32,000 nucleotides of DNA from Candidatus Saccharimonadota bacterium (GTDB lineage: Bacteria; Bacillota_I; Bacilli_A; Mycoplasmatales; Hepatoplasmataceae). Location of the stretch: NCBI RefSeq assembly GCF_000582535.1, contig NZ_CP006932.1:510001-542000 (forward strand), read 5' to 3'. Made by a program: the position numbers and the translations under genes. Below the pieces are notes generated by a model, which searched no databases, was not told where the DNA came from, and was given only the letters and a program-made list of their open reading frames with translations. How positions within the stretch are numbered: the first letter of the stretch is position 1; each line of letters opens with the position of its first letter. Below, one piece after another: positions 4,838 to 19,342 of the stretch.

Positions 4838-7168
4838 CTAATTACTTAAATTTCCTGACTGATAAATCTGATCAATTGTTTTTAATTCAAAATCATTTCC
4901 TTCGAATGAAAAATATGAAAGTAAATTATGTAAATTAGCATTTCAATTTGCTACATCAAAATCACCTAAGTAAATATCCCCATACTTATCAAAGAAATCA
5001 TTTGATCTTGCTACTTGTGTAGTTGTTTTAGAGATATCATTTCAAAAAACTTGATTATAAAATTGTCCTAAAATCTCATTTGGATCAGCTTTAAGCTCTC
5101 AATCCAAATCTTCGCCATTTTCAAGTGCACTTTTTTCTTGATCTGTAAATTCATTTCCATCAGGATTATAAGTTTGATCTAAATAATTTAAATACTGATT
5201 AAAAATAATATCTTTTGCATTTGTAGTTAATCAAGATTGATAGCTTTCAATAATATCATATTGATATTGATAAAGTTGACTAATTGAATCAGGATTATTT
5301 TGTAATAATTTTTGATCAAGTTGATAAGATAACATTACTTGAGCATCACTTATCCCTGATTCTTCTTGATCATTAAAAACATTATCATGAACTAAATGCA
5401 TTCCATCAATTGATTGAGTAAGATAATAATCTTCTTCAATGTTTGTACTATTATCAATCTTATCATTAGTAATATTAGATTTTACATTACTAAATGTAAA
5501 ACCAGTTGTTTGATCATAATTATAATGATTAATAGTCGGAATTTGTAAATGATAAAAAATCTGTCGATCAGTATTATCAACTAAATTTGAATAATCAAAA
5601 ACTTGTGCGTAAAATCCCTTATTTACTTGAGCAACAACTTGATTACCCCCTGTTTGTCCTGTTAAATTACTAATATAAACATCTGTATATTCACCATCAA
5701 AAGTTTGATTAATATAATCATATCTTTCTTGATCAGTAGTTGGTAAACTATCATAAGTTCAAATTACATTATCATTAGGATCAATTTCTGTAGTTGCTCC
5801 ATAACCAGGAATAAAATATTGATATTTATTTAAATTAGTAATTGGAAAAGTTTCAGCAGATGGAGCAAAAATATCTTTAAAAACATCACGATACTCAAGT
5901 CCTACTTCTTCAAAAAAAGCATAATATCTACTAAACATTAAAGATGAATTATATGTATCATTATCAAAATCTTCATTAGATTGATAATTTTCTGAAATTA
6001 AATTATCATAAACTTCCATTAAAACTAATGAAACTGTTGAATTTGCAGAAACACTATCAGATAAACTTGTAACACCAGAATCAGTAAAAGTTGGTGCACT
6101 AGAATAATCAGTATTATTAAAATCTAAAAATTCTCAATCATCAATTGATGTATTATAAATATTTTGATAAGAAATAACTGCAAGATCAGCTAAAAATACT
6201 CAAACATCATCGATATTTTCAGTAGTAAGAGCAAATGATTCTGTTTTACTTGTTAACCCCTCTCGATCAGGATTTTCAAAAGTAAAAGGAATTAAAATAT
6301 CTTCATAATTAATAGGTTTATAAATTTTTTGATATAAATCAAATAAAAATTGATGATTAATTACTGTTTTATTAAGAACAGGATCATCATAAAAAATTGT
6401 CTGTTGATTAAAATCACCATTAAATCCATAATATCTTGATGATGGAGTTTCTAAAGTTGAACGATATTTTTTTGTAAGTGGATCTGTCGAATCATCAAAA
6501 TAAATATAAGTGTCTTCTGAAAGAATAGTTGAAATAGAGGATAAAAGAGATTCAGAAATTAAATTATTACGATATTGATCTTCTGTATCAAATCCTAATG
6601 ATAAAAGATTTTTATTTCACTCTTTTTTTCAATCATTTCCATATTGGTCACGATAAGTATCTTTTTCATCACTTATCTGATTATCAGCTTTATTTTCAGC
6701 ACTATCTAAATCCTTTTTAGATCCTAATCCTTTATCTATTAAAACTTTATAACCCCAAACAACAGCATTGTCTTTCAGATAATTCGTTTCATATTGTGCA
6801 GGATCATTTTGATTATCAATAATAAGCTCTTCAATTTGTTCTAATGTATAATATTCATCACCAAATTTAATACCAGATTTTTCTTCTTTATTAGATAATC
6901 CTAAACCTAATCCTAAACCTAAAGCTAGCAAGATAATAAAAATTATTAAAATTATTATTAATAATTTTAAATGTCTTCTAAATCAATTTTTTTGTTCAGA
7001 ATGATCTTTTTTATCATAAAAAGAATGATCATCCTTTTTTTCACTTTCTTTTTTTGGTTCGATGTTCTCTTTTTTTGTATTATTCTTTACTTTTGCTTGC
7101 TCATCTTTATTTTTAGGATCACTATCCTTAAAAATAAGTGAATCTTTAACTTCTCTTTGCGGCGTCAT
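4838..7168 (-). CDS. Hypothetical membrane-anchored acidic surface protein (776 aa), probable paralogue of the downstream gene
   Basis: Track ORFs 6983-7168, 6629-6931 and 5759-6019 share one frame. I checked every codon between them and down to 4841, and only TGA interrupts the frame. TAG is at 4838-4840. A 60-aa Lys/Glu/Asp-rich N-terminal tail is followed by the TM segment LLIIILIIFIIILLALGLGLGLGLS and a large acidic domain. The stop lies 11 nt upstream of the next gene's ATG. Confidence 0.7.
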
Positions 7169-7315: not shown

Positions 7316-8596
7316 ATGATAAAACTTAATCTCAAAAATTCAAAAATTGAAAAAAAAATATATAGTTATCAATCTAAAGTAAATACTATTCACCAAATGA
7401 TTATTAATAGAACAGGTCAAGGTAATGAAATGCTTGATTGATATAATTGAGCTAAAACAATTACAAATACTGAAATAAATGCAATTAATTTTAAAATTAA
7501 AAACTTAAAAACAATTAATAAAGTTGATACACTTTTAGTGCTAGGAATTGGTGGTTCTTATTTAGGAGCAAAAACAGGGATTGATTTTATAAATGGATCT
7601 TTAAGAGCAAATAATAAAGTTATTTTTGCAGGAATAAATCTTTCTAGTAATTACTATAAACAAATTGAAGAAAAATTAAAAAATAAAAATTGAGCAATTT
7701 GTGTTATTTCAAAATCAGGAAAAACAATTGAACCAGCAATTGCTTTTAGATATTTTCGAAATTTACTAGAGAAAAAAATTGGAAAAGCAAAAATGAAAGA
7801 TTTCATTGTTGTAATTACCGATCGTAAAAAAGGCTTATTAAATAATTTTGTTGAAAAATATAATTATCAAAAATTTATCATTCCAGATGGAATTGGTGGT
7901 CGTTTTTCAGGAATAACTTCTGTAGGTTTATTTCCAATGGCTTTTGCTGGAATTAATATTAAAGAATTATTAGAAGGTATAAAATTAGCAATGGATGATT
8001 TTAAGAATTCTAATTTAAAAGAAAATATTGCTTATCAATATGCTGTAGCAAGAAATATTCTTTATAAAAAGAGATTGACATCAGAAATATTTGTAACTTA
8101 TAATGAAGACTTTATAATGCTGGGAGAATGACTTAAACAATTATTTGGAGAATCTGAAGGAAAAGAAGGAAAAGGTTTGTTTCCAAATTCTGTAAATTAT
8201 ACAAGAGATCTTCATTCTCTTGGGCAATTTATTCAAGAAGGAAAAAGAACTTTTTTTGAAACAACAATTTGACAAGAATATGAAGATCAAGATGTTAAAA
8301 TCACAAAAGAAGATTTAGATTTAGATCAATTAAATTATCTTGAAGGAAAAACAATCGATTATATTAACAAACAAGTATTAAAAGGAGTTTTAAAAGCACA
8401 TACAAGAGATGGAAATATTGCAAATATTATAATTAGTTTTAATAAAAATGATGAAAAAACATTAGGTTATTTATGATATTTTTTCTTTATTGCGGTTACT
8501 TGTTCAGGATACTTATTAAAAATAAATCCTTTTAATCAACCAGGAGTGGAAATATATAAAAAGCATTTACTAGAAAATTTAAAATTTAAAAAATAA
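7316..8596 (+). CDS. pgi: Glucose-6-phosphate isomerase
   Basis: The gene encodes 426 aa once TGA is read as Trp. PGI signatures are present: [28 protein letters not shown] and FGESEGK. It merges the track ORF 7793-8131 with its flanks in the same frame. Confidence 0.92.
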
Positions 8597-8667: not shown

Positions 8668-10038
8668 ATGGATAAAAAATTAGAAAGTTTAACAGTTGCT
8701 CAACTTAAAAAAGAAGCTGACCAAAAAAACATAAAATATAAATCTTCTATAAGTAAAAAAGAATTAATAAAATTACTTGAAGATAAAAAAAGACCAATAA
8801 AAAGTGGAAAAACTATTTTACCTAGAGATAAAGCAGTTGAATTAATACAAGAAATATTTAAAGATAATAATTTTGCTCCTCTAAGCTTACAACAAATTTT
8901 TAATAGTAAAAGATTATTAAAATATAAAAAACAATATAAAAATGAAGAATCTTATGAAAGTGCAATTAAATGAAACTTAGAAGTAAATTCAAAAGATTCT
9001 AAATTATGAGATCAAAAAAACACTATTTTTGAAAATAGAAATATTGGAGAAGGAATATGAGGATTAGTAGGAGATACAGTTCATACATATCAAGAATCTT
9101 CATCTGCTAAAAAAATAGATAATTCTTCAAAAGAACCAAAAAAAATTGAAAAAACAGAAGAATCAAAAAAAAGCAAAAAACCAAAAAGATTGATTTCTAA
9201 AATTAAAGCAAAAAATGCAGCTCATCTTGATCAAGGTGAAAAATTAATTGAAGGAAAATATCAATTGGTAATTAAAAACCTTAGAAAAAAATATGGTAAA
9301 ACTGAAGTTCTAAATGGAATAGATCTTAAAGTTATGCCAGGAGAAAAAGTTGCTGTTGTTGGTGCAAATGGTGCTGGAAAAAGTACATTATCTGAAATAA
9401 TTGCGCAAGTAAAAGAACCAACAAGCGGAGAACTTCTTTATTCATTCGGACATACAAAAGAAAAAATTTCAGCAAAAATTGGAATTCAATTCCAAGATTC
9501 TTCTTATCCTGATTTTTATAAAGTTAGTGATATTGTTAGATTTATAATTGATGCTTCAGATATTAAAATTTCAAATGAAGATTTAGATCATCTTTATGAA
9601 ACTTTTGATGTTAAATATCTTAAAAAAGATGTAGCAAAAGGATTATCAGGAGGACAACAACAACGTCTAAATATTCTTCTTGCAATTGTAAATAATCCTA
9701 AAATTTTAATTTTAGATGAAGTAGGAACAGGTCTTGATGTTGAATCTAGAACAAAAATTAAATCATATATTAAATCATATATTCATGAAAATGATGCAAC
9801 ATTATTATTAGTATCACATAACTCTGATGAAGTTATCGAACTTGTAGATAGAGTTGTTGTTATCCACAGTGGAAAAATATATGAAGATAGACCTTTAAAA
9901 TCAATTTTAAAAGAATGAAAACATTTTGATGATTATATGAATAATCTTTATTTAAATGTCTTCAAGAAAAATCTTGATTTAAGAGTAAATAAATCAGGTC
10001 GTCAAAAAAGAAAAGAAAAAGAAGGAGAAAAAAATTAA
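8668..10038 (+). CDS. ABC transporter ATP-binding protein with a roughly 175-aa N-terminal extension (HeH/Rho_N-like motif plus winged-helix-like module)
   Basis: ORFs 8668-8973 and 9190-9918 are in the same frame. All codons between them were checked, and only TGA occurs. The product is 456 aa. The ABC core has Walker A GANGAGKST, signature LSGGQQQRL and Walker B ILILDE. There is no in-frame ATG near the start of the ABC domain; the track's start at 9190 is a TTG with no SD. Confidence 0.7.
8797..9108 (+). repeat. Direct repeat copy 1 (about 310 bp), paired with 18543-18856
   Basis: A gapless 303-nt alignment joins 8806-9108 to 18554-18856, with roughly 25 mismatches (about 92% identity by eye). 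It encodes GKTILPRDKAVELIQEIFKDNNFAPLSLQQIFNSKRLL...NIGEGIWGLVGDTVHTY. Confidence 0.9.
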
Positions 10039-12850: not shown

Positions 12851-13912
12851 ATGTTTACGATCTTAACAAATGAAACAGTAAAAAATTCTAAATCTATTTT
12901 TGCAAAAATTAGATTTTATATTTACAAAATAATTGAACCTTATCCAGAAAATAAGTTTTATGCTTATATTAGCTATTTTTATAATATCCTTACAATTATA
13001 TTTGCACTATTTGTTTTATTACCAGCATTATGATCAACAAGTGGAAATAATCCCTTTATTGATTGATTAGATGCTAATGCAATTGCTTTTTATATTGTTC
13101 TTACAATTGATTATATTCTAAGATGATTTATTTCTGATTATACACTTGGAAAAGGTTATAAATCATTTTTCTTATTTTTTGTTAGTTTTTGAGGAATAAT
13201 TGATTTTCTAGGAATTTTTCCTATTTGATTCGGAGCAAATGGATTTGCAATCTTTCTAATCTTCCGTTTATTTAAAATAATTCGTTTCTTTCCAAGAATA
13301 AACTCAGCTTTTATATTAATTAATAAAACATTATTTCGTAGATGAAAAGTCCTTACAATTGTCTTTATAAATTTTATTTTTATGATTTTTTTCGGAGCTA
13401 CATTAATCTGATTATTTGAAAATGAAACTAACCCTGATATTAATACTTTTTGAAATGCTGTATATATGATGTTTATTACGATGACGACAATCGGATTTGG
13501 TGATATTACTCCAATTACTACAGGAGGAAGAATTGTTGTTTCAATCTTCTCGTTAGTAGGTATTTCAATTATTGCAATTATTACTGCAATTGTAGTTACT
13601 AGTTTTACAGATGAATTAGAAGAAGTAAGAAGAAGAATTAATAAACAAAATAAATTATCACGAGAAAAATTATGAAAAAAATATCGTTCACTTACAAAAG
13701 AAGAAGTAATTGAATTACTTAAAAAATATAAAATCTCTTTCCCCGAAAGACAACGACATGATCAACTTGTAAATATATATATTACTTTTCTAATTAAAAA
13801 AGAAAATAAGAAAAATAAAACAGATCAAGTGGAATCAGTAAATGCTAATGAACTTCTAGATCAAGAACAAACAATTGAGATAAATAAATTAGATTCAAAT
13901 AAAGATAAATAA
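12851..13912 (+). CDS. Voltage-gated-type (6TM) potassium channel with a C-terminal HeH/Rho_N-like motif
   Basis: The gene encodes 353 aa and the frame was checked (TGA only). The selectivity filter is TTIGFGD. An S4-like segment FRLFKIIRFFPRIN has a basic residue at about every third position. The C-terminal tail is LTKEEVIELLKKYKISFPERQRHDQLVNIY. Confidence 0.8.
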
Positions 13913-13914
13913 AA

Positions 13915-14619
13915 TTAAAGAATTACAACTTTATTAGCTCTATTTTCAATTTTTATCTTTAAGTTAAATTTCTTAATAAGTCTATCTAATGTAAGGAAAA
14001 GAATAAAATTATCTTTGTATCTAAAGCAAATATCTCTTTCTCCTCGTAAAAGAATCACAAATCCATAATCATATAAAATTGCTTTTTTAATTTCATAAAA
14101 TTTTATTACTTCAATTATCTTATCTTTTTTTTGATCATAAAATACAATTTCAGAATTAGAAAAAATAAGTTCCCCTTTATTTTCTGATTGATAAATCTCA
14201 TTTTGATCTAACAAATATTTATTTACATTTTTATATAAAAAATAAGCAATTTTACTCAAGCTAATTCCTTGATAAGAAGAAGGATAAGGTGCTTCAATTG
14301 TTTTAAAAAATCTTCGATTTGTAAAATCTCTTGCAAGCATATATTGTAAATTTAAATCTTCGTAATTATAAAGTTTAAGATCTAATTTTATAATTATATG
14401 TTTCATCTTACTAAAAAAAACTTGATTATTATGATAATTTTTTTCTTTCCACTTACGAAAAAGAATTTTTTTATAACTCTCGAACAAATCATAATCAAAC
14501 TTAGATTGTATTTCTTTTATTTGCAATTTAGATAATTTATCTAAATTATCAAGATTCAATTTTTGATTAATTTTATAAAATTGATACTGAGTATTTACTT
14601 TTCCCTTAATTGTAGTCAT
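13915..14619 (-). CDS. Hypothetical protein (234 aa), last gene of the R-M operon
   Basis: This is an intact track ORF with no TGA codon. Its ATG is 13 nt downstream of the nuclease stop. I recognised no family. It contains IVFYD-x13-EIK, which resembles the nuclease's LLLYD-x9-EIK. Confidence 0.6.
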   Translation of the reverse strand: MTTIKGKVNTQYQFYKINQKLNLDNLDKLSKLQIKEIQSKFDYDLFESYKKILFRKWKEKNYHNNQVFFSKMKHIIIKLDLKLYNYEDLNLQYMLARDFTNRRFFKTIEAPYPSSYQGISLSKIAYFLYKNVNKYLLDQNEIYQSENKGELIFSNSEIVFYDQKKDKIIEVIKFYEIKKAILYDYGFVILLRGERDICFRYKDNFILFLTLDRLIKKFNLKIKIENRANKVVIL

Positions 14620-14632
14620 GTTTTTATTATAT

Positions 14633-15424
14633 TTAATTGAAGAAATTAGTTAATATATTTTCTATTTCATTTTTTAAATTATTTTTAATAATTTCATTAT
14701 TTGAAACCTTATTAAAAACTTCTTTTATATCACTAAATAAAATATTATTAGTAAATTTTATTCAAAATTCTTCTCCTCTAAGTAAATTTTTATTTTCTTC
14801 TAAATAATCATCTTTTCATCTTTTTTTATCATTAAAAAAATATAAAATTGGTTGAATTTTTTTATAATTTATTTTATTTTCTTCAAAATATCTTCTTAAA
14901 GCAAAAGTAGTTTCAAATAATTTTTTATAAATATTTTCATGCTTTCCAGTATCGTGATTATCTAAAAGTTTTATTTCAAATAAGTAATAATTGCTATTAT
15001 TATCGTACAATAGAAGATCAATATCTTTTTGTTTAATTTTTTTTGCTATATCTAATTTTTCATATTTAATATCATCTAAAAAACTTAAATTAAGATCTCT
15101 CTTATTTTTCATATAATCTTCAATCGAATCATTTTCTGCTTTTGAAATAATTCCATTTATTTTTTTACCTGATAATTTAGATAAATTATATTTTTTATCT
15201 TCTTTTACAATATCTCGTATTAATTTTTCAATAAAATTCCCAAAAGTAATACTTAAAGATTGTAAATAACTTATTAAATTTCTGTATTCAATTGGTAAAA
15301 AATGAACTTTTTCTTTATTATTTTTTATTTTTTTATTAAAATCTTTAGGATCTTTTTTTGATTTTATGATTTTATTTATATCACTTAAAATTATTTCTTC
15401 TAATTTTTCTTGATTTAAATTCAT
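14633..15424 (-). CDS. Type II restriction endonuclease candidate, PD-(D/E)xK type (263 aa), possibly R.HinfI-like
   Basis: The track ORF 14816-15424 extends through two TGA codons to TAA at 14633-14635; the frame was checked. The start lies 3 nt after the methyltransferase stop. The putative catalytic motif is DIDLLLYD...YYLFEIKLL. The 263-aa size is close to the 262 aa I recall for R.HinfI. Confidence 0.6.
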
Positions 15425-15427
15425 ATT

Positions 15428-16513
15428 TTATTTAACATCCTTTCTTATATCATCAATTGAAATATAATTATTCCCTTCCTTAATATATCAATATTTTCAA
15501 CCATTTAAATATCTACCATTTTCAAATATTTCAGTAGCTTTATGAATTGAATATTTAACATTATTTATTTTAATTTTTCCTTCTGAATTTAAATAAACTT
15601 TATCTTCTTTTAAATTGTATAAATATTTTGATTTAATTTTATTTTCTCTTATTAAATCTAAAATTTTGGGATATTTTATCTTTTCATCAAACTTCGCTTT
15701 AATATAATCAAAAAATGGGTCATTTTTTGAAATTTTATCAACATTTTTAATTCTATCATTAGCATAATTTATATATTTTTCATTATTTTCTATTCCTATA
15801 AAATTACGATGTAATTTTTTAGCAACAGCTCCTGTTGTTCCTGTTCCAAAAAAAGGATCTAAAATAACATCATTTATTTTTGTTGATGCTAAAATAATTC
15901 TTCTTAATAAATCTTCTGGTTTTTGTGTATTATGTAATTTATTACCATTATTATCTTTTAATCTTTCTTTTCCTGAACATATAGAAAATTTTCATACACT
16001 TCCCATTTGTTTTTTTTTATTTTCATTTTTCATTGTTTTATAATTAAAAGTAAATTTAGAATTTTGAGATTTTGTAAACCATATTAAATTTTCATTTGAA
16101 TTTACAAACTTTGTACCTCTAAAATTAGGAGTAGGATTCGTCTTTTCTCAAGTTATATCATTAATTATTCAAAAATTTAAATCTTGAATAATATAACCTA
16201 ATCTATAAATATTATGGAAAGTTCCCATTACTCATATTGAACCCTTATCTTTTAATATTCTTCTACATTGTGTTAATCATTTTCTAGTAAATTTATCATA
16301 TTCTTTATATGAATCAAATTTGTCCCATTCATCATCTACGCCATTATATTTATTACCATTAATTCTATAAAGAGTACCTGTTCCTGTTTGCATAAAATAA
16401 GGAGGATCAGCAAAAATTAAATCAATAGATTTAGAAGGTATTTTTTTTAATTCTTCTAAACAATTTCCTAATTTAATTTTATTTATAAATTTATCTAAAT
16501 TATCATTTTTCAT
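15428..16513 (-). CDS. Beta-class N6-adenine DNA methyltransferase of the CcrM / M.HinfI family (361 aa)
   Basis: I checked the frame from 15431 to 16276; only TGA occurs. Motif IV is IFADPPY near the N-terminus and motif I is [15 protein letters not shown] near the C-terminus, which is the beta order. Long stretches match my memory of Caulobacter CcrM: [40 protein letters not shown] and the C-terminal NGWKYWY. Confidence 0.85.
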
Positions 16514-16560
16514 CTTTTTAATTATAAAAAATAATTACTTTAAATAATTGTTTTTATATT

Positions 16561-17655
16561 TTAAATTAAATCCTTCAAATAATTATCTATTTCTATTATT
16601 TTATATGGTAACTGTTTTATTAATCCTTCTCTAAAATCTTCAATTATTTGACTTAATGAAGATTTTAAGTTATTAATTTGAAGTTCTCCGTTGGAGTAAA
16701 ATAATTTATATAAAGATTCTATTGATTCTCTTAATGAAGCATATTTTTGATTTAATCAATTTTTAAAAATAATTGTTTTATTATGATATATTCGATTTCT
16801 TAAAAATTTAATTTTTTCTAATTCATTTATAAATTCTTTTTTAATATTTACTAAATTTTTTGGATCTAATTCTTCAAAATTTAAAATTTTATTATTTACA
16901 ATTTCAAATTCTCAATGAATAATATTTTTAGTATTATTAAAAAATAGTCTCAATAAATTTGAAAAAGAAGTATCATCTAATTTTTCAATTAAATTAATAT
17001 AATCTTGAAAATTCATTTCTTCAAAAGTAATTTCTAAAAATTCATTAGATTCTTTCAAATCCTTTATAGTTGTTGGTATCATTTTTATTGATTCATGGAA
17101 AAGTGATTTTTCTTTATTCTTTTTTTCTTGCAAAATTCCAGGAAAAAAGAAAATTTTTTGGAAAGTTAAATTATTTTTTCTCATAATAGACATTAGCATA
17201 ACTCTTAAAAAATATTCAAAATTATAAATAACATCTCCTATTAATTTTCTAAAAATATCTTGCAATCTATAAAATGAATCAAAAATTTGAAAAGTTATAA
17301 TTTCTTTTTCTTCATAATTTATTTTTAAAATGTTTTCATAAATGTATTCAATAAATTTGAAACTATAAGTATTAGAAATTGCAAAAAATTGTTCTAAATA
17401 TCTATTTGTTGTGAAAGGGATATTATTTTTTAAGCAATTCAATATTTTATCTGAATTAATTTTTCTATTTTTATTAAAAAAATTTCAAATTTTTTTATAA
17501 TAAATGTTATTTTCTATATATTGAACATTTTTATTAATGTTTTTTATATTTTCTTCGTCAGCTTTTTTAAAATTATCAAAAAAAATTATTAATTCATCAA
17601 TTTTTTTTCTTTTTTTATTTGATCTAATTTCTCTATCATATCCGTTATTTTTCAT
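16561..17655 (-). CDS. Abi_2 (AbiD/AbiF-like) HEPN-type abortive-infection protein candidate (364 aa)
   Basis: ATG is at 17653-17655 and the frame was checked down to TAA at 16561-16563 (three TGA codons). The sequence KFLRNRIYHNKTI supplies an R-x4-H HEPN motif (codons 16783-16800) in the context typical of the Abi_2 family. Confidence 0.6.
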
Positions 17656-17703
17656 AAATTCATCTTTTTTTATTTATTTACAAATATTATAAATAAATAT
17701 TTA

Positions 17704-18354
17704 TTAATTATTATCTTTATATCTCCCTACCAAATAATCTATAAGTAAAATAATTATTAATAAAAATAAAAACAATCCTTCTGATCCAATTATTATATTT
17801 CGATACTGATAAAAAGTTGGATAAATTCCTGATCCTGAAATAAATATTAAAAGTAAAATAAAATAAATCGGAAATAAAAAAGCTGAATAAATTATTTTAA
17901 ATTTAAAACTAATAAGAATCGAAATAAAATATAAAAATGTGCAATTAATCATAAAATAATAAAATCATCTTTTTGTATAAGAAGTATTAAAATTAGATAA
18001 AACAAAATAAGCAACAAGATAATAAAAAATAATACTAATTAAAAGAATTACTAAACAAGAAATAATAATTGAATAATAATAACTATTTCTAAGTTTAAAA
18101 TTATTTAACTGAAACTTAAGTTTTTTTCATCTATCAATTAAAACAACTACAAAACTTATTGAAATTAAATTAATAAGCGAAAAATACATAATAATTCTTG
18201 GCGGATCTAATTTTCATGTTTCTAGATGATCTTTTACTACTTGAAAAACTGAATTTAATTCAATAAAAAAAGTAGATCATATTAAAAAAAATAAAATTAA
18301 AATTACTAGTGATTTTAAATTTCAAATTTTTCTAAGATAAAATAATAATTCCAT
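17704..18354 (-). CDS. Hypothetical multi-pass membrane protein (216 aa), first gene of the minus-strand island cluster
   Basis: ATG is at 18352-18354 and the frame was checked (TGA only). There are about six hydrophobic helices, for example LVILILFFLIWSTFFI, YFSLINLISISFVVVLI, IIISCLVILLISIIFYYLVAYFVL and FLFPIYFILLLIFISGSGI. It ends 48 nt upstream of the Abi-like gene. Confidence 0.6.
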
Positions 18355-18542
18355 AATTTATATTTTCATTTATAGTTTTATTATATTAATTACTAAAAAT
18401 ATAAATATTATTAACTATATTAGAATTATATATAATTAATTTTTTTCTTTCATTCTCAATATTTCTTATTTCCTAAAATTTGTAATATAATTAAATACAG
18501 ATAATTAAAGAGAGTAAACATAGGATTAATAAAAGGAAATTT

Positions 18543-18856
18543 AATAAAAAATGGGAAAAACTATCTTACCTAGGGATAAAGCGGTTGAATTAATACAAGA
18601 AACATTTAAGGATAACAATTTTGCTTCTCTAAGCTTACAACAAATTTTTAATAGTAAAAGATTATTACAATATAAAAGTCAATATAAAAATGAAGAATCT
18701 TACCAAAGTGCAATCAAATGAAATTTAGAAGTAAATTCAAAAGATTCTAAATTATGAGATAAAAAAAATAATATCTTTGAAAATAGAAATATTGGAGAAG
18801 GAATATGAGGAGTAGTAGGAGATACAGTTCATACATATAAGGAACCTTCATCTACT
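18543..18856 (+). repeat. Direct repeat copy 2, paired with 8797-9108
   Basis: See copy 1. Homology crosses the ATG of the HNH gene (aataaaaaATGGGaaaaact versus aataaaaAGTGGaaaaact) with a 1-nt indel just upstream. Confidence 0.9.
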
Positions 18857-19285
18857 TCTAAAACAATAACTTCTTTTAAAACAAAAAAAGCAAAAGTAAC
18901 AAAAGCAATAAAAGCAACAACAAAAATTAAAAAAGCAAAAAGCGGAAACAAAGAAACAGATCTATTAGATCTATTAAATAGTGAATTAGATGATGATTTA
19001 AAATTAATCATTACAAAAAAAATTAAATTAAATAAAGAATTAGCTTCTGAAATTAGAGCAAGAGCAAATCATAGATGTGAATATTGTGGACAAGAAACTT
19101 TTAAAAATGATCAAGATGAAGGATATCTTGAAGTTCATCATATTGATTTTCTATGTGAAGGTGGAAAAGATCAAAAAGATAATTTAATTGCTCTTTGTCC
19201 AACTTGTCACCGTAGAGCACACTCTTCTAAAGAAAGAGAAGAATTTAAAGAAGAATTAAAAAATATTGTAAATGATAAAAATTAA
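18551..19285 (+). CDS. HNH endonuclease with an N-terminal winged-helix-like (Mrr_N / HARE-HTH-like) module (244 aa)
   Basis: The full frame was checked. The C-terminus is HRCEYCGQETF...LEVHHIDFLCEGGKDQKDNLIALCPTCHRRAH, an HNH/CCHH motif. The first 101 aa are about 89% identical to residues 47-147 of the ABC ATPase. Confidence 0.8.
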
Positions 19286-19305
19286 ATTTTATTAATTAAC
19301 AAAAT

Positions 19306-19334
19306 AAAAAGCAACCCTTAAGGTTGCTTTTTTC
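19306..19334. terminator. Bidirectional rho-independent terminator between the HNH gene and rpoC
   Basis: aaaaa-gcaacc-cttaa-ggttgc-ttttttc has a G+C-containing stem flanked by A and T runs, between two convergent stops. Confidence 0.8.
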
Positions 19335-19342
19335 TTTTATTA

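What the first reader, a model, noticed from the sequence alone, without database searches (positions are those of the whole stretch)
13913..19342. Defence-type accessory island between a K+ channel gene and rpoC
Everything to the right of 19343 is a Bacillus-like core operon, and the DNA to the left up to 13912 holds transport and tRNA genes. Six genes with no housekeeping signature sit between them. Five are co-directional on the minus strand with gaps of only 48, 47, 3 and 13 nt: a 6-TM protein, an Abi_2/HEPN-like protein, a CcrM/HinfI-like methyltransferase, a PD-(D/E)xK nuclease and an unknown 234-aa protein. The sixth is a divergent wH-HNH nuclease behind a 196-nt AT-rich spacer. By eye this is the most AT-rich coding DNA in the window. 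The left edge is a 2-nt tail-to-tail junction with no terminator. No integrase or transposase is present, so how the island arrived is unclear. A membrane protein, a HEPN protein, an R-M pair and two further nuclease-like genes packed into 5.4 kb is what a multi-layered anti-phage or anti-plasmid locus looks like. Only the methyltransferase belongs to a family I can name with confidence.
Basis: partly seen in the sequence, partly recalled or inferred. Interest (0 to 1): 0.78.

Follow-up and report, generated by a model that had tools for sequence, protein, structure and literature searches.

The report
Swappable defence-gene slot beside rpoC
In this tiny-genome isopod gut symbiont (Candidatus Hepatoplasma), the DNA just downstream of rpoC is a slot where strains exchange anti-foreign-DNA gene cassettes; this strain holds an ordinary HinfI-type restriction-modification pair plus some lineage-specific genes of unproven function.

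Summary
Read with genetic code 4, the six genes, their spacings and the low G+C are all as described. The window comes from Ca. Hepatoplasma crinochetorum.

The core of the block is a complete HinfI-family type II restriction-modification pair: M at 15428-16513 and R at 14633-15424. g6 is a nuclease whose HNH domain resembles McrA. g4, g5 and g1 are found only in Hepatoplasma.

Seven related loci show that the rpoC-to-g1 interval is a recombination hotspot.
- In a sister strain with 99% identical flanks, exactly g4+M+R (14634-17644) is replaced by a putative HNH nuclease plus a C5/N6 fusion methyltransferase.
- A second pair of strains with 99% identical flanks swaps g4-M-R for a divergent g4 allele plus a GmrSD_N protein.
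- The HNH gene moves as a self-contained unit.

g1 is present in 7 of 7 loci, so it is a conserved anchor, not cargo. M and R sit at this site across species, so the pair is old rather than newly arrived.

The low G+C lies only in codon positions 1 and 2 and is not evidence of foreign origin.

The "Abi_2" call for g4 fails every profile test. g4 does carry both HEPN motif hallmarks, invariant across the family.

Verdict: a real but ordinary kind of feature, a defence hotspot with a known type of R-M system.

The parts
13915..14619 (-). g1, 234 aa. A conserved Hepatoplasma-specific anchor gene at the edge of the hotspot, not cargo. The N-terminal part is helical and the C-terminal ~80 aa look PH/PTB-like.
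   Evidence: Present in 7 of 7 loci at 74-99% identity, tracking the flanking genes. Homologues occur only in Hepatoplasma. The AF2 model has mean pLDDT 47, but residues 149-226 reach 61-82. Foldseek against PDB returns consistent PH/PTB folds at rmsd ~2 A over 70-80 residues, E ~1e-3 to 1e-2.
14633..15424 (-). g2, a HinfI-family type II restriction endonuclease (PD-(D/E)xK type), 263 aa.
   Evidence: NCBIfam NF045831 restrict_HinfI: E 6.7e-35, 120.7 bits, residues 5-244 on profile 2-250 of 264; this is below the equivalog cutoff of 175. PADLOC REase_II: 5.3e-22. A precomputed Pfam PF09520 HinfI hit exists for the identical protein. The D134-x15-E150-I-K152 motif is conserved in the four orthologues matched (window, L083, L003, L004); the L084 copy did not match the search pattern and was not inspected.
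15428..16513 (-). g3, a beta-class N6-adenine DNA methyltransferase of CcrM/HinfI type, 361 aa. Predicted target GANTC.
   Evidence: Pfam N6_N4_Mtase: 6.1e-67. PADLOC MTase_II PDLC03216: 7.7e-144, full length. NCBIfam CcrM model: 431 bits, below the equivalog cutoff of 830. DPPY at residue 36 precedes FxGxG at 221. A weak C-terminal RAMA match, E 0.027.
16561..17655 (-). g4, 364 aa. A fast-evolving all-alpha orphan protein with invariant E147-x3-R151 and R286-N-x3-H291. A candidate HEPN-like RNase.
   Evidence: Only 5 representatives among 1.84 billion proteins, all Hepatoplasma. Alleles are 37-61% identical even where flanks are 99% identical. Motifs are invariant and match the HEPN hallmarks in PMC3710099. 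No hit in Pfam, PADLOC, NCBIfam, PHROGs or a PDB profile search. The AF2 model is all-helical but has pLDDT 49.
14634..17644 (.). The 3,011-nt exchangeable cassette (g4 + M + R). It is replaced in sister strain AP027132.1 by a 3,110-nt cassette.
   Evidence: blastn of the window against L086: homology at 98.9% ends at 14633 and resumes at 17645 at 99.1%. The replacement is X426 (HNH_2, E 1.2e-3) plus a 589-aa C5+N6 fusion MTase (PADLOC 2.7e-202).
17704..18354 (-). g5, 216 aa. A polytopic membrane protein with about 6 TM segments, function unknown. Found only in the window strain and its sister strain.
   Evidence: Hydropathy profile. No family hit. A 98% identical copy is in L086. No copy is in L084, L085, L003 or L004; L083 is uninformative because its contig starts at M.
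18475..18550 (+). Conserved upstream region of the HNH gene, with a TATAAT box near 18486-18491 and an RBS. It travels with the gene.
   Evidence: Alignment of HNH units from four lineages at two different positions in the locus.
18551..19285 (+). g6, 244 aa. A lineage-specific N-terminal domain, a Lys-rich linker, and a C-terminal HNH nuclease that is McrA-like. A candidate type IV restriction enzyme or selfish nuclease.
   Evidence: Pfam HNH: 3.5e-12. PDB 6ghc, E. coli McrA: 2.7e-12 over residues 171-236. PADLOC mREase_IV: 5.8e-14. The N-terminal domain has no homologues. It sits next to rpoC in WIN, L086 and L084, and between g1 and the K channel in L003 and L085.
18547..18846 (+). One copy of a 300-nt direct repeat (92% identical). 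The other copy is at 8799-9098, inside the ABC-ATPase gene.
19306..19332 (.). A bidirectional terminator-like hairpin shared by the convergent g6 and rpoC genes.
   Evidence: 11-12 bp stem with T tracts on both strands; 2 sites found against 0.4 expected.

Best explanation
The interval between rpoC and the conserved gene g1 is a defence-gene hotspot in Candidatus Hepatoplasma. Its contents are exchanged by homologous recombination in the conserved flanks, without integrases.

In this strain it holds three independent modules and one unassigned gene.

(1) A HinfI-type type II R-M operon. The beta-class MTase is inferred to methylate the adenine of GANTC on host DNA. The PD-(D/E)xK REase is inferred to cut unmethylated GANTC in incoming DNA. 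M lies 3 nt upstream of R, so M is made first.

(2) g4 lies directly upstream and is swapped together with M and R as one 3-kb cassette. It is an all-alpha orphan protein with the two HEPN catalytic hallmarks. I infer, at about 50%, that it is a HEPN-type RNase acting as a second, abortive-infection-like layer, as described for HEPN genes embedded in R-M operons.

(3) A free-standing HNH nuclease gene with its own promoter region and terminator. Its nuclease domain is McrA-like. I infer a type IV-like or otherwise DNA-targeting nuclease whose specificity is set by a novel N-terminal domain.

g5 is a small membrane protein of unknown role. g1 is not part of the island.

Shown: the gene calls, the family assignments of M, R and the HNH domain, the variable content, and the exact swap breakpoints.

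Inferred: GANTC specificity, activity of the enzymes, an RNase function for g4, and the mode of DNA exchange.
For: Families:
- M.
- R.
- HNH.

Hotspot. Seven loci have seven different arrangements between the same flanks. The alternative occupants are also defence-type:
- GmrSD_N proteins at 68.7-70.1 bits against a cutoff of 33.2;
- a C5+N6 MTase with PADLOC E 2.7e-202;
- a putative HNH_2 nuclease.

Strain-level swaps:
- Window vs AP027132.1: flanks are 98.9-99.1% identical at the nucleotide level. The breakpoints are at 14633/14634 and 17644/17645.
- L003 vs L085: rpoC, Kch and p212 are 99% identical, yet the content differs, g4 is 45% identical and g1 is 92%.

Recombination signature: the junctions fall at gene boundaries, and identity next to the right junction rises 93.5 > 97.5 > 98 > 100%.

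g4: the family's only invariant His lies 5 residues after one of its two invariant Arg, with Asn following. The other invariant Arg is in E-x3-R. The chance estimate is about 0.016. The motif definitions, and the note that Abi2/AbiF/AbiD genes are 'embedded in R-M operons', come from PMC3710099.

HNH unit: about 75 nt of upstream sequence is conserved wherever the gene sits.

The exact cassette is seen in two independent sequencing runs.
Against: - No functional data exist. GANTC specificity is inferred from family membership only. Both M and R score below NCBIfam's equivalog cutoffs.
- GANTC is not depleted: 85 observed against about 66 expected in the window, and similar in every locus. A long-resident active REase often causes site avoidance.
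- g4 has no statistically supported link to any HEPN or Abi family. Its structure model is too poor to test the fold.
- One g4 relative, P0009, sits in a non-defence context.
- M and R at this site are old and mostly inherited vertically. 'Accessory' is therefore true only at the level of loss or replacement in some strains.
- Only seven loci were available. An anchor-based metagenome scan found no more.
Confidence: 0.75

Rival explanations
1. The block is ordinary, vertically inherited genus-core DNA rather than an accessory island. The methyltransferase is a CcrM-like housekeeping or regulatory enzyme, as proposed for the orphan GANTC methylase of Mycoplasma agalactiae.
For: M, R and g1 lie downstream of rpoC in lineages whose rpoC is only 85% identical. 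M's identity tracks the species divergence. GANTC is not avoided. A GANTC orphan MTase is universal in M. agalactiae and is suspected to be regulatory (PMC9465063). GC3 gives no foreign signature.
Against: M is always paired with an intact full-length HinfI-family REase, and the catalytic motif was found in the four orthologues matched. M and R are both missing from two lineages whose flanks are 99% identical to lineages that carry them, so they are dispensable. The slot holds other defence genes instead. This reading is correct only for g1.
Confidence: 0.12
2. The HNH gene g6 is a selfish homing-type nuclease rather than a host defence gene. Its mobility within the locus, and the copy of its N-terminal domain inside the ABC-ATPase gene, reflect its own spread.
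For: g6 occupies two positions across lineages and moves with its own promoter region and terminator. Its N-terminal 100 codons were duplicated into another gene. It has many PHROGs hits to phage HNH endonucleases and a weak IscB-type match.
Against: The best nuclease-domain match is the type IV enzyme McrA, followed by PADLOC mREase_IV. There is no intron, intein or transposon context and no terminal repeats. Each genome locus has a single copy, and its divergence tracks the species. It is always inside the defence slot.
Confidence: 0.2
3. g4 is not a HEPN RNase. It is an unrelated lineage-specific protein, for example a regulator or accessory factor of the R-M system or an unrelated surface or structural gene, and its motifs are coincidental.
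For: No profile, PDB or fold match was found. E-x3-[KR] is common in Lys/Glu-rich helical proteins. A relative lies in a non-defence context. g4 occurs without R-M in L085, and R-M occurs without g4 in L084.
Against: The only invariant His and both invariant Arg fall in the two HEPN hallmark motifs, with a chance estimate of about 0.016. The P0001 orthologue has a single His in the whole protein, and it is the motif His. The protein is predicted to be all-alpha. It shows the extreme allelic divergence typical of conflict genes. It is embedded in an R-M operon, as described for Abi2/AbiD/AbiF.
Confidence: 0.45

Closest known systems
HinfI restriction-modification system (R.HinfI / M.HinfI, GANTC) and the CcrM family of beta-class N6-adenine methyltransferases
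   Same: The MTase has the beta-class motif order (DPPY before FxGxG) and matches the CcrM/HinfI-type models over its full length. The REase matches the HinfI family model end to end with a D...ExK motif. The two genes are adjacent and co-directional.
   Different: Both proteins score below NCBIfam's equivalog cutoffs, so they are divergent members. Specificity is untested. Unlike CcrM or the M. agalactiae GANTC methylase, the MTase is not an orphan and is dispensable between strains. GANTC is not avoided in the host DNA sampled.
Defence islands and hotspots: variable defence cargo between conserved core genes
   Same: The flanks are conserved (rpoC on one side; g1 and the K channel on the other). 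The content differs in every lineage and is drawn from defence families: type II R-M, GmrSD_N, HNH nucleases and a HEPN-like protein. Swaps occur between near-identical strains.
   Different: There is no integrase, transposase, tRNA attachment site or prophage. Exchange appears to be by plain homologous recombination. The host is a ~0.65-Mb reduced-genome symbiont. Part of the cargo (M and R) is old and mostly vertically inherited.
Abi2/AbiD/AbiF HEPN family (Pfam Abi_2), which is often embedded in R-M operons
   Same: The size is about 350 aa and the prediction is all-alpha. R-N-x3-H and an upstream E-x3-R are invariant. The gene lies directly upstream of, and is swapped together with, an R-M pair.
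   Different: There is no detectable sequence-profile similarity to Abi_2 or to any PADLOC Abi model. The family is confined to Hepatoplasma. The fold is not established.
E. coli McrA (type IV, 5-methylcytosine-dependent HNH restriction enzyme; PDB 6ghc)
   Same: The C-terminal HNH domain is the best PDB match (E 2.7e-12). The overall plan is the same: an N-terminal DNA-recognition domain followed by a C-terminal HNH.
   Different: The N-terminal domain is unrelated to McrA's and has no known homologues. An identical g6 coexists with a C5 methyltransferase in the sister strain. Unrestricted 5mC-dependent cleavage is therefore unlikely.

Membership tests
HinfI-type type II R-M system | Beta-class N6_N4 methyltransferase with the catalytic DPPY motif N-terminal to the SAM-binding FxGxG motif | tested here: met
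   Pfam N6_N4_Mtase at 6.1e-67. DPPY at residue 36 and FFGTGT at 221, in all orthologues.
HinfI-type type II R-M system | The methyltransferase belongs to the CcrM/HinfI (GANTC) clade | tested here: inconclusive
   The NCBIfam CcrM equivalog model aligns residues 10-359 at 431 bits, but the cutoff is 830. PADLOC MTase_II PDLC03216 gives 7.7e-144 over the full length.
HinfI-type type II R-M system | The restriction enzyme belongs to the HinfI family | tested here: inconclusive
   NF045831 gives E 6.7e-35 over the full length, but 120.7 bits is below the cutoff of 175. A precomputed Pfam PF09520 HinfI hit exists for the identical protein. PADLOC REase_II gives 5.3e-22. The D...ExK motif is conserved in the four orthologues matched.
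HinfI-type type II R-M system | Adjacent M and R genes forming one unit | tested here: met
   The gap is 3 nt and the strand is the same. M and R are present together or absent together in all 7 loci.
HinfI-type type II R-M system | m6A methylation of GANTC and cleavage of unmethylated GANTC | not testable with these tools
   This needs methylome data or enzymology. GANTC counts show no avoidance, which is neutral to mildly negative.
Abi_2 (AbiD/AbiF) / HEPN superfamily | A significant match to the Abi_2 or another HEPN profile | tested here: not met
   No Pfam hit at E<=1 for g4. Among 5 family members scanned at E<=10, only one showed HEPN_Swt1, at E=1. There is no PADLOC Abi hit and no PDB profile hit.
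Abi_2 (AbiD/AbiF) / HEPN superfamily | A conserved Rx4-6H motif with a polar residue after R, and a second conserved E-x3-[K/R] (as defined in PMC3710099) | tested here: met
   R286-N-x3-H291 and E147-x3-R151 are invariant in all 5 members. The definitions were read.
Abi_2 (AbiD/AbiF) / HEPN superfamily | An all-alpha, four-helix-bundle HEPN fold | tested here: inconclusive
McrA-like type IV restriction enzyme | A C-terminal HNH (beta-beta-alpha-Me) nuclease domain | tested here: met
   Pfam HNH at 3.5e-12. PDB 6ghc McrA at 2.7e-12. PADLOC mREase_IV at 5.8e-14.
McrA-like type IV restriction enzyme | An N-terminal domain that recognises modified DNA | tested here: not met
   The N-terminal 100 aa match no Pfam, PDB or database family. 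Modification dependence itself cannot be tested here.
Defence island / hotspot | Variable gene content between conserved flanks in closely related genomes | tested here: met
   Seven loci show seven arrangements. Two swaps occur between strains with 99% identical flanks.
Defence island / hotspot | Cargo enriched in known defence families | tested here: met
   HinfI R-M; a C5+N6 MTase with an HNH_2 protein; GmrSD_N proteins; a McrA-like HNH.

The most novel reading that the evidence does not exclude
g4 would define a new HEPN-type defence family confined to Hepatoplasma. X342 of L083 carries the same E-x3-K / R-D-x3-H pair and may be a second such family. Alleles would be exchanged between strains and evolve far faster than the rest of the genome, acting as an abortive-infection layer coupled to whichever restriction cassette occupies the rpoC hotspot. 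In addition, the N-terminal domain of the HNH nuclease would be a new DNA-recognition module that was co-opted into an ABC-transporter ATPase.
Probability: 0.25. Interest if true: 0.55.

Novelty: new member of a known kind. Interest (0 to 1): 0.38.

Why it matters
The locus shows that a ~0.65-Mb host-associated Mollicute still keeps an actively shuffled defence slot. Cassettes are exchanged between near-identical strains without any mobile-element machinery. This implies ongoing DNA exchange and ongoing pressure from phages or plasmids in the isopod hepatopancreas.

The published defence inventory for Hepatoplasmataceae (PMC10928387, Table 4) lists no type II restriction enzyme for H. crinochetorum or H. 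scabrum. This HinfI-type pair and the alternative cassettes therefore add to that inventory.

Practically, GANTC restriction and the HNH nuclease are barriers to consider in any attempt to transform these uncultured symbionts. The cassette content is also a ready strain marker.

The orphan g4 family is a reasonable candidate for experimental testing as a new HEPN-like defence gene.

Tried and rejected
- Table 11 ORF calling fragments every gene, so I switched to table 4.
I used orthologues P0001 and P0002 as proxies instead.
- Deep searches for g4, g1 and the g6 N-terminal domain found only Hepatoplasma proteins or fragments.
- Pfam, PADLOC, NCBIfam and PHROGs gave nothing for g1, g4 or g5. 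Scanning all five g4 family members at E<=10 added nothing, nor did a PDB profile search.
- The AF2 models of the g4 orthologue and of g1 were poor, at pLDDT 49 and 47.
- hhalign of g4 against X342 was not significant, at probability 0.15.
- tblastn of g4 against plasmids and phages, and of R against plasmids, gave no match.
- I tried to fetch a genuine AbiF plasmid (pNP40, accession recalled from memory) for a direct profile comparison. The record is not in the collection.
- A metagenome scan anchored on g1 found no relatives.
- Rfam found only the four tRNAs.
- The promoter scan is uninformative in this AT-rich DNA: 67 sites against 62 expected.
- I rejected low G+C as evidence of horizontal origin, because GC3 is unchanged.
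- I rejected recent gene conversion between the two repeat copies. They are equally diverged, at 85-86%, in both strains.

Full report
**Origin and genetic code**

Under table 11 the region breaks into short ORFs. With TGA read as Trp (table 4) the window resolves into long, tightly packed genes, and five of the six genes in the block contain in-frame TGA codons, 20 in all. G+C is about 25%.

A scan of species-representative genomes with the C-terminal third of RpoC found two close relatives. They are Ca. Hepatoplasma crinochetorum Ps (L003, 86%) and Ca. H. scabrum Ps-JP (L004, 82%). Everything else is at or below 49%.

The sister strain AP027132.1 is named Ca. H. crinochetorum Tokyo2021, from Armadillidium vulgare, in PMC10928387. 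Its flanks are 98.9-99.1% identical to the window at the nucleotide level. The window is therefore a Ca. H. crinochetorum strain of the A. vulgare lineage. The exact locus also occurs on contigs from two independent sequencing runs.

**Checking the observation**

G+C falls to 0.15-0.20 across the block. g2, g4 and g5 are the three most AT-rich genes in the window. The only terminator-like hairpin is at 19306-19332, between the convergent g6 and rpoC. No integrase or transposase family is hit.

There is one correction of meaning. The G+C dip lies entirely in codon positions 1 and 2. GC3 is 0.06-0.12 in the block and 0.05-0.17 elsewhere. Synonymous sites are already saturated with A+T genome-wide. 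The dip therefore reflects Lys/Asn/Ile/Phe-rich protein composition, meaning weak amino-acid constraint under AT pressure. It says nothing about foreign origin. The orthologous genes in the other species are just as AT-rich.

**What the genes are**

*g3 (methyltransferase).*
- It is a beta-class N6/N4 DNA methyltransferase: Pfam 6.1e-67.
- DPPY at residue 36 precedes FxGxG at 221.
- It aligns end to end with a PADLOC type II MTase model (7.7e-144).
- It also aligns with NCBIfam's CcrM model at 431 bits, below the equivalog cutoff of 830.

*g2 (restriction enzyme).*
- It aligns end to end with NCBIfam's HinfI-family model: E 6.7e-35, 120.7 bits, cutoff 175.
- It hits a PADLOC REase_II model (5.3e-22).
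- The identical protein carries a precomputed Pfam HinfI hit.
- Its D134...E150-x-K152 motif is conserved in the four orthologues that matched the search pattern.

Together, g3 and g2 form a divergent but complete HinfI-type type II R-M pair. GANTC specificity is inferred from family membership, not shown.

*g6 (HNH nuclease).* It has a C-terminal HNH domain (Pfam 3.5e-12). The best solved relative is E. coli McrA (6ghc, 2.7e-12), and the best PADLOC model is a type IV enzyme (5.8e-14). Its N-terminal ~100 residues match nothing.

*g5 (membrane protein).* It has about six hydrophobic segments and no family.

*g1 and g4 (orphans).*
- Homologues of both occur only in Hepatoplasma, among 5.8 billion clustered proteins.
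- An exhaustive profile search of 1.84 billion representatives found just five members of the g4 family.
- The g1 model is poor overall. Its C-terminal ~80 residues fold as a beta-sandwich plus helix that consistently matches PH/PTB domains.

**Comparative map**

I assembled seven loci, all oriented from rpoC onward.

| Locus | Order of genes |
|---|---|
| Window | rpoC, HNH, g5, g4, M, R, g1, K channel |
| L086 (AP027132.1) | rpoC, HNH, g5, X426, M589, g1, K channel |
| L083 | (contig starts) M, R, g1, X342, K channel |
| L084 | rpoC, HNH, M, R, GmrSD_N, g1, K channel |
| L085 | rpoC, g4', GmrSD_N, g1, HNH, K channel |
| L003 (Ps) | rpoC, g4, M, R, TM91, g1, HNH, K channel |
| L004 (H. scabrum) | rpoC, M, R, g4', g1, 207-aa gene (no K channel) |

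The alternative occupants are also defence-type.
- M589 is a C5 + N6 fusion methyltransferase (PADLOC 2.7e-202).
- X426 has a weak HNH_2 match (E 1.2e-3).
- The 401- and 411-aa proteins are GmrSD_N/DUF262 proteins, well above Pfam's cutoff.

g1 is present in 7 of 7 loci, and its identities track those of the flanking genes. It is a conserved anchor gene, not cargo.

**Strain-level swaps**

*Window vs L086.* Homology at 98.9% ends at window 14633, the stop codon of R. It resumes at 17645, inside the first ~4 codons of g4, at 99.1%. Exactly g4+M+R (3,011 nt) is exchanged for X426+M589 (3,110 nt). Identity next to the right junction climbs 93.5, 97.5, 98, 100% per 200 nt. That is what an imported recombination tract looks like.

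*L003 vs L085.* A second, independent pair has 99% identical RpoC, K channel and 212-aa protein, and 98% identical HNH. Yet one carries g4-M-R-TM91 and the other g4'-GmrSD_N. Their g4 alleles are 45% identical and g1 is 92%.

No integrase, transposase or terminal repeats are involved. Homologous recombination in the conserved flanks is the simplest mechanism, though this is inferred.

**Age of the R-M pair**

M and R occupy this site in five of seven lineages spanning at least three species. M's identity follows the species divergence: 90% to the close lineage and 76-78% to the distant ones, and 91% between L084 and L003, whose RpoC is 96% identical. The pair is therefore ancestral at this site and has been lost or replaced in some strains.

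R is odd. It is only 69% identical between L084 and L003. This suggests allele replacement or fast evolution of R alone.

GANTC is not depleted. The window has 85 sites against about 66 expected, and the ratio is similar in all loci. That is neutral to mildly negative for a long-resident, strongly active REase.

**The g4 question**

The structure model of the orthologue is all-helical but has mean pLDDT 49, and fold searches gave nothing.

At the motif level the case is better than a guess. Across five members sharing 36-62% identity there are only two invariant Arg and one invariant His.
- The His lies five residues after one Arg, with Asn following (L-R-N-x-I-x-H-x-K-T).
- The other Arg sits in an invariant E-x3-R.
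- One orthologue has a single His in the whole protein, and it is the motif His.
- A simple placement estimate gives a chance of about 0.016.

These are exactly the two hallmarks that the HEPN survey defines. The same paper notes that Abi2/AbiD/AbiF genes are embedded in R-M operons (PMC3710099).

Other observations:
- g4 alleles are extraordinarily divergent, at 37-61%, even between strains with 99% identical flanks. This is typical of conflict genes.
- g4 is separable from R-M. It is present without R-M in L085, and R-M is present without it in L084.
- One distant relative lies near an rRNA operon in H. vulgare, in a non-defence context.

I rate 'HEPN-like RNase' at about 50% and membership in Abi_2 as not established.

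**The HNH gene**

g6 sits next to rpoC in three lineages and between g1 and the K channel in two. Wherever it sits, about 75 nt of upstream sequence with a TATAAT box and RBS is conserved, and a hairpin follows it. It is a self-contained transcription unit that has relocated within the hotspot.

An identical g6 coexists with a C5 methyltransferase in the sister strain. It is therefore unlikely to be an unrestricted 5mC-dependent enzyme. A selfish, homing-type role is a live rival.

**Comparison with what is known**

The core is a new, divergent member of the HinfI/CcrM-type R-M kind. The locus as a whole is a defence hotspot of the familiar kind, but without mobility genes and in a very small genome.

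GANTC methylation is known in Mollicutes, but as an orphan methylase in M. agalactiae (PMC9465063). Here the methylase is paired with an REase and is dispensable.

The published Hepatoplasmataceae defence table lists no type II REase for H. crinochetorum or H. scabrum (PMC10928387). The locus has not been described, but it is not conceptually new.

**Verdict**

- g1 is not cargo.
- The R-M pair is old.
- AT-richness is not evidence of foreign origin.
- The Abi_2 label is unproven.

Novelty: new member of a known kind. Interest: 0.38.

Noticed in passing
window 8799-9098 and 18547-18846: A 300-nt direct repeat, 92% identical. The N-terminal ~100-aa domain of the HNH protein is also inserted into the linker of the ABC-transporter ATPase (8668-10038). 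It sits after a HeH/SAP-like motif there. The insert exists only in the window/L086/L083 clade (454-456 aa); L084, L085 and L004 have 336-340 aa. The two copies are 85-86% identical over 395 nt in both strains, so the duplication predates the strain split. The Logan assembly L001 breaks at both copies.
   Followed up: partly
window 13913-14619; L083 2758-3786; L003 15421-16152; L085 13164-13895: There is a second, smaller variable slot between g1 and the K-channel gene. It is empty (2 nt) in the window. L083 has a 342-aa orphan there (X342), which carries Y-E-x3-K at residue 146 and R-D-x3-H at 261, the same pair of HEPN-type motifs as g4. L003 and L085 have the HNH gene there.
   Followed up: partly
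window 1-32000 and loci L003, L004, L083-L086: GANTC sites are not avoided. The window has 85 against about 66 expected, and observed/expected is about 1.0-1.4 in all loci, whether or not the HinfI-type pair is present.
   Followed up: yes
L084 7945-8715 vs L003 13366-14151: The restriction enzyme is only 69% identical between two lineages whose RpoC is 96% and whose methyltransferase is 91% identical. R has been replaced, or evolves much faster than its partner M.
   Followed up: no
L004 14860-15500: The K+ channel gene (window 12851-13912) is absent from Ca. H. scabrum. There g1 abuts the 207-aa membrane protein gene directly.
   Followed up: no
L087 (AP027131.1, Ca. H. vulgare) 7898-8418 and 16177-16608: Near the distant g4 relative P0009 lies a family of small coiled-coil ORFs that share the start 'MWIKL(I/V)FKKE...' and heptad-like 'DVSELKTDVSVLKK' repeats, next to an apparent rRNA region. 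It looks like a repeat-variable gene family.
   Followed up: no
L003 14185-14460: A 91-aa two-TM protein gene lies between R and g1 in strain Ps only. It is another small membrane protein in the slot, unrelated in sequence to g5.
   Followed up: no
window 1-32000: GC skew changes sign near 7,000 and near 13,500, exactly where gene orientation flips. In this window the skew follows the direction of transcription, not a replication origin or terminus.
   Followed up: no
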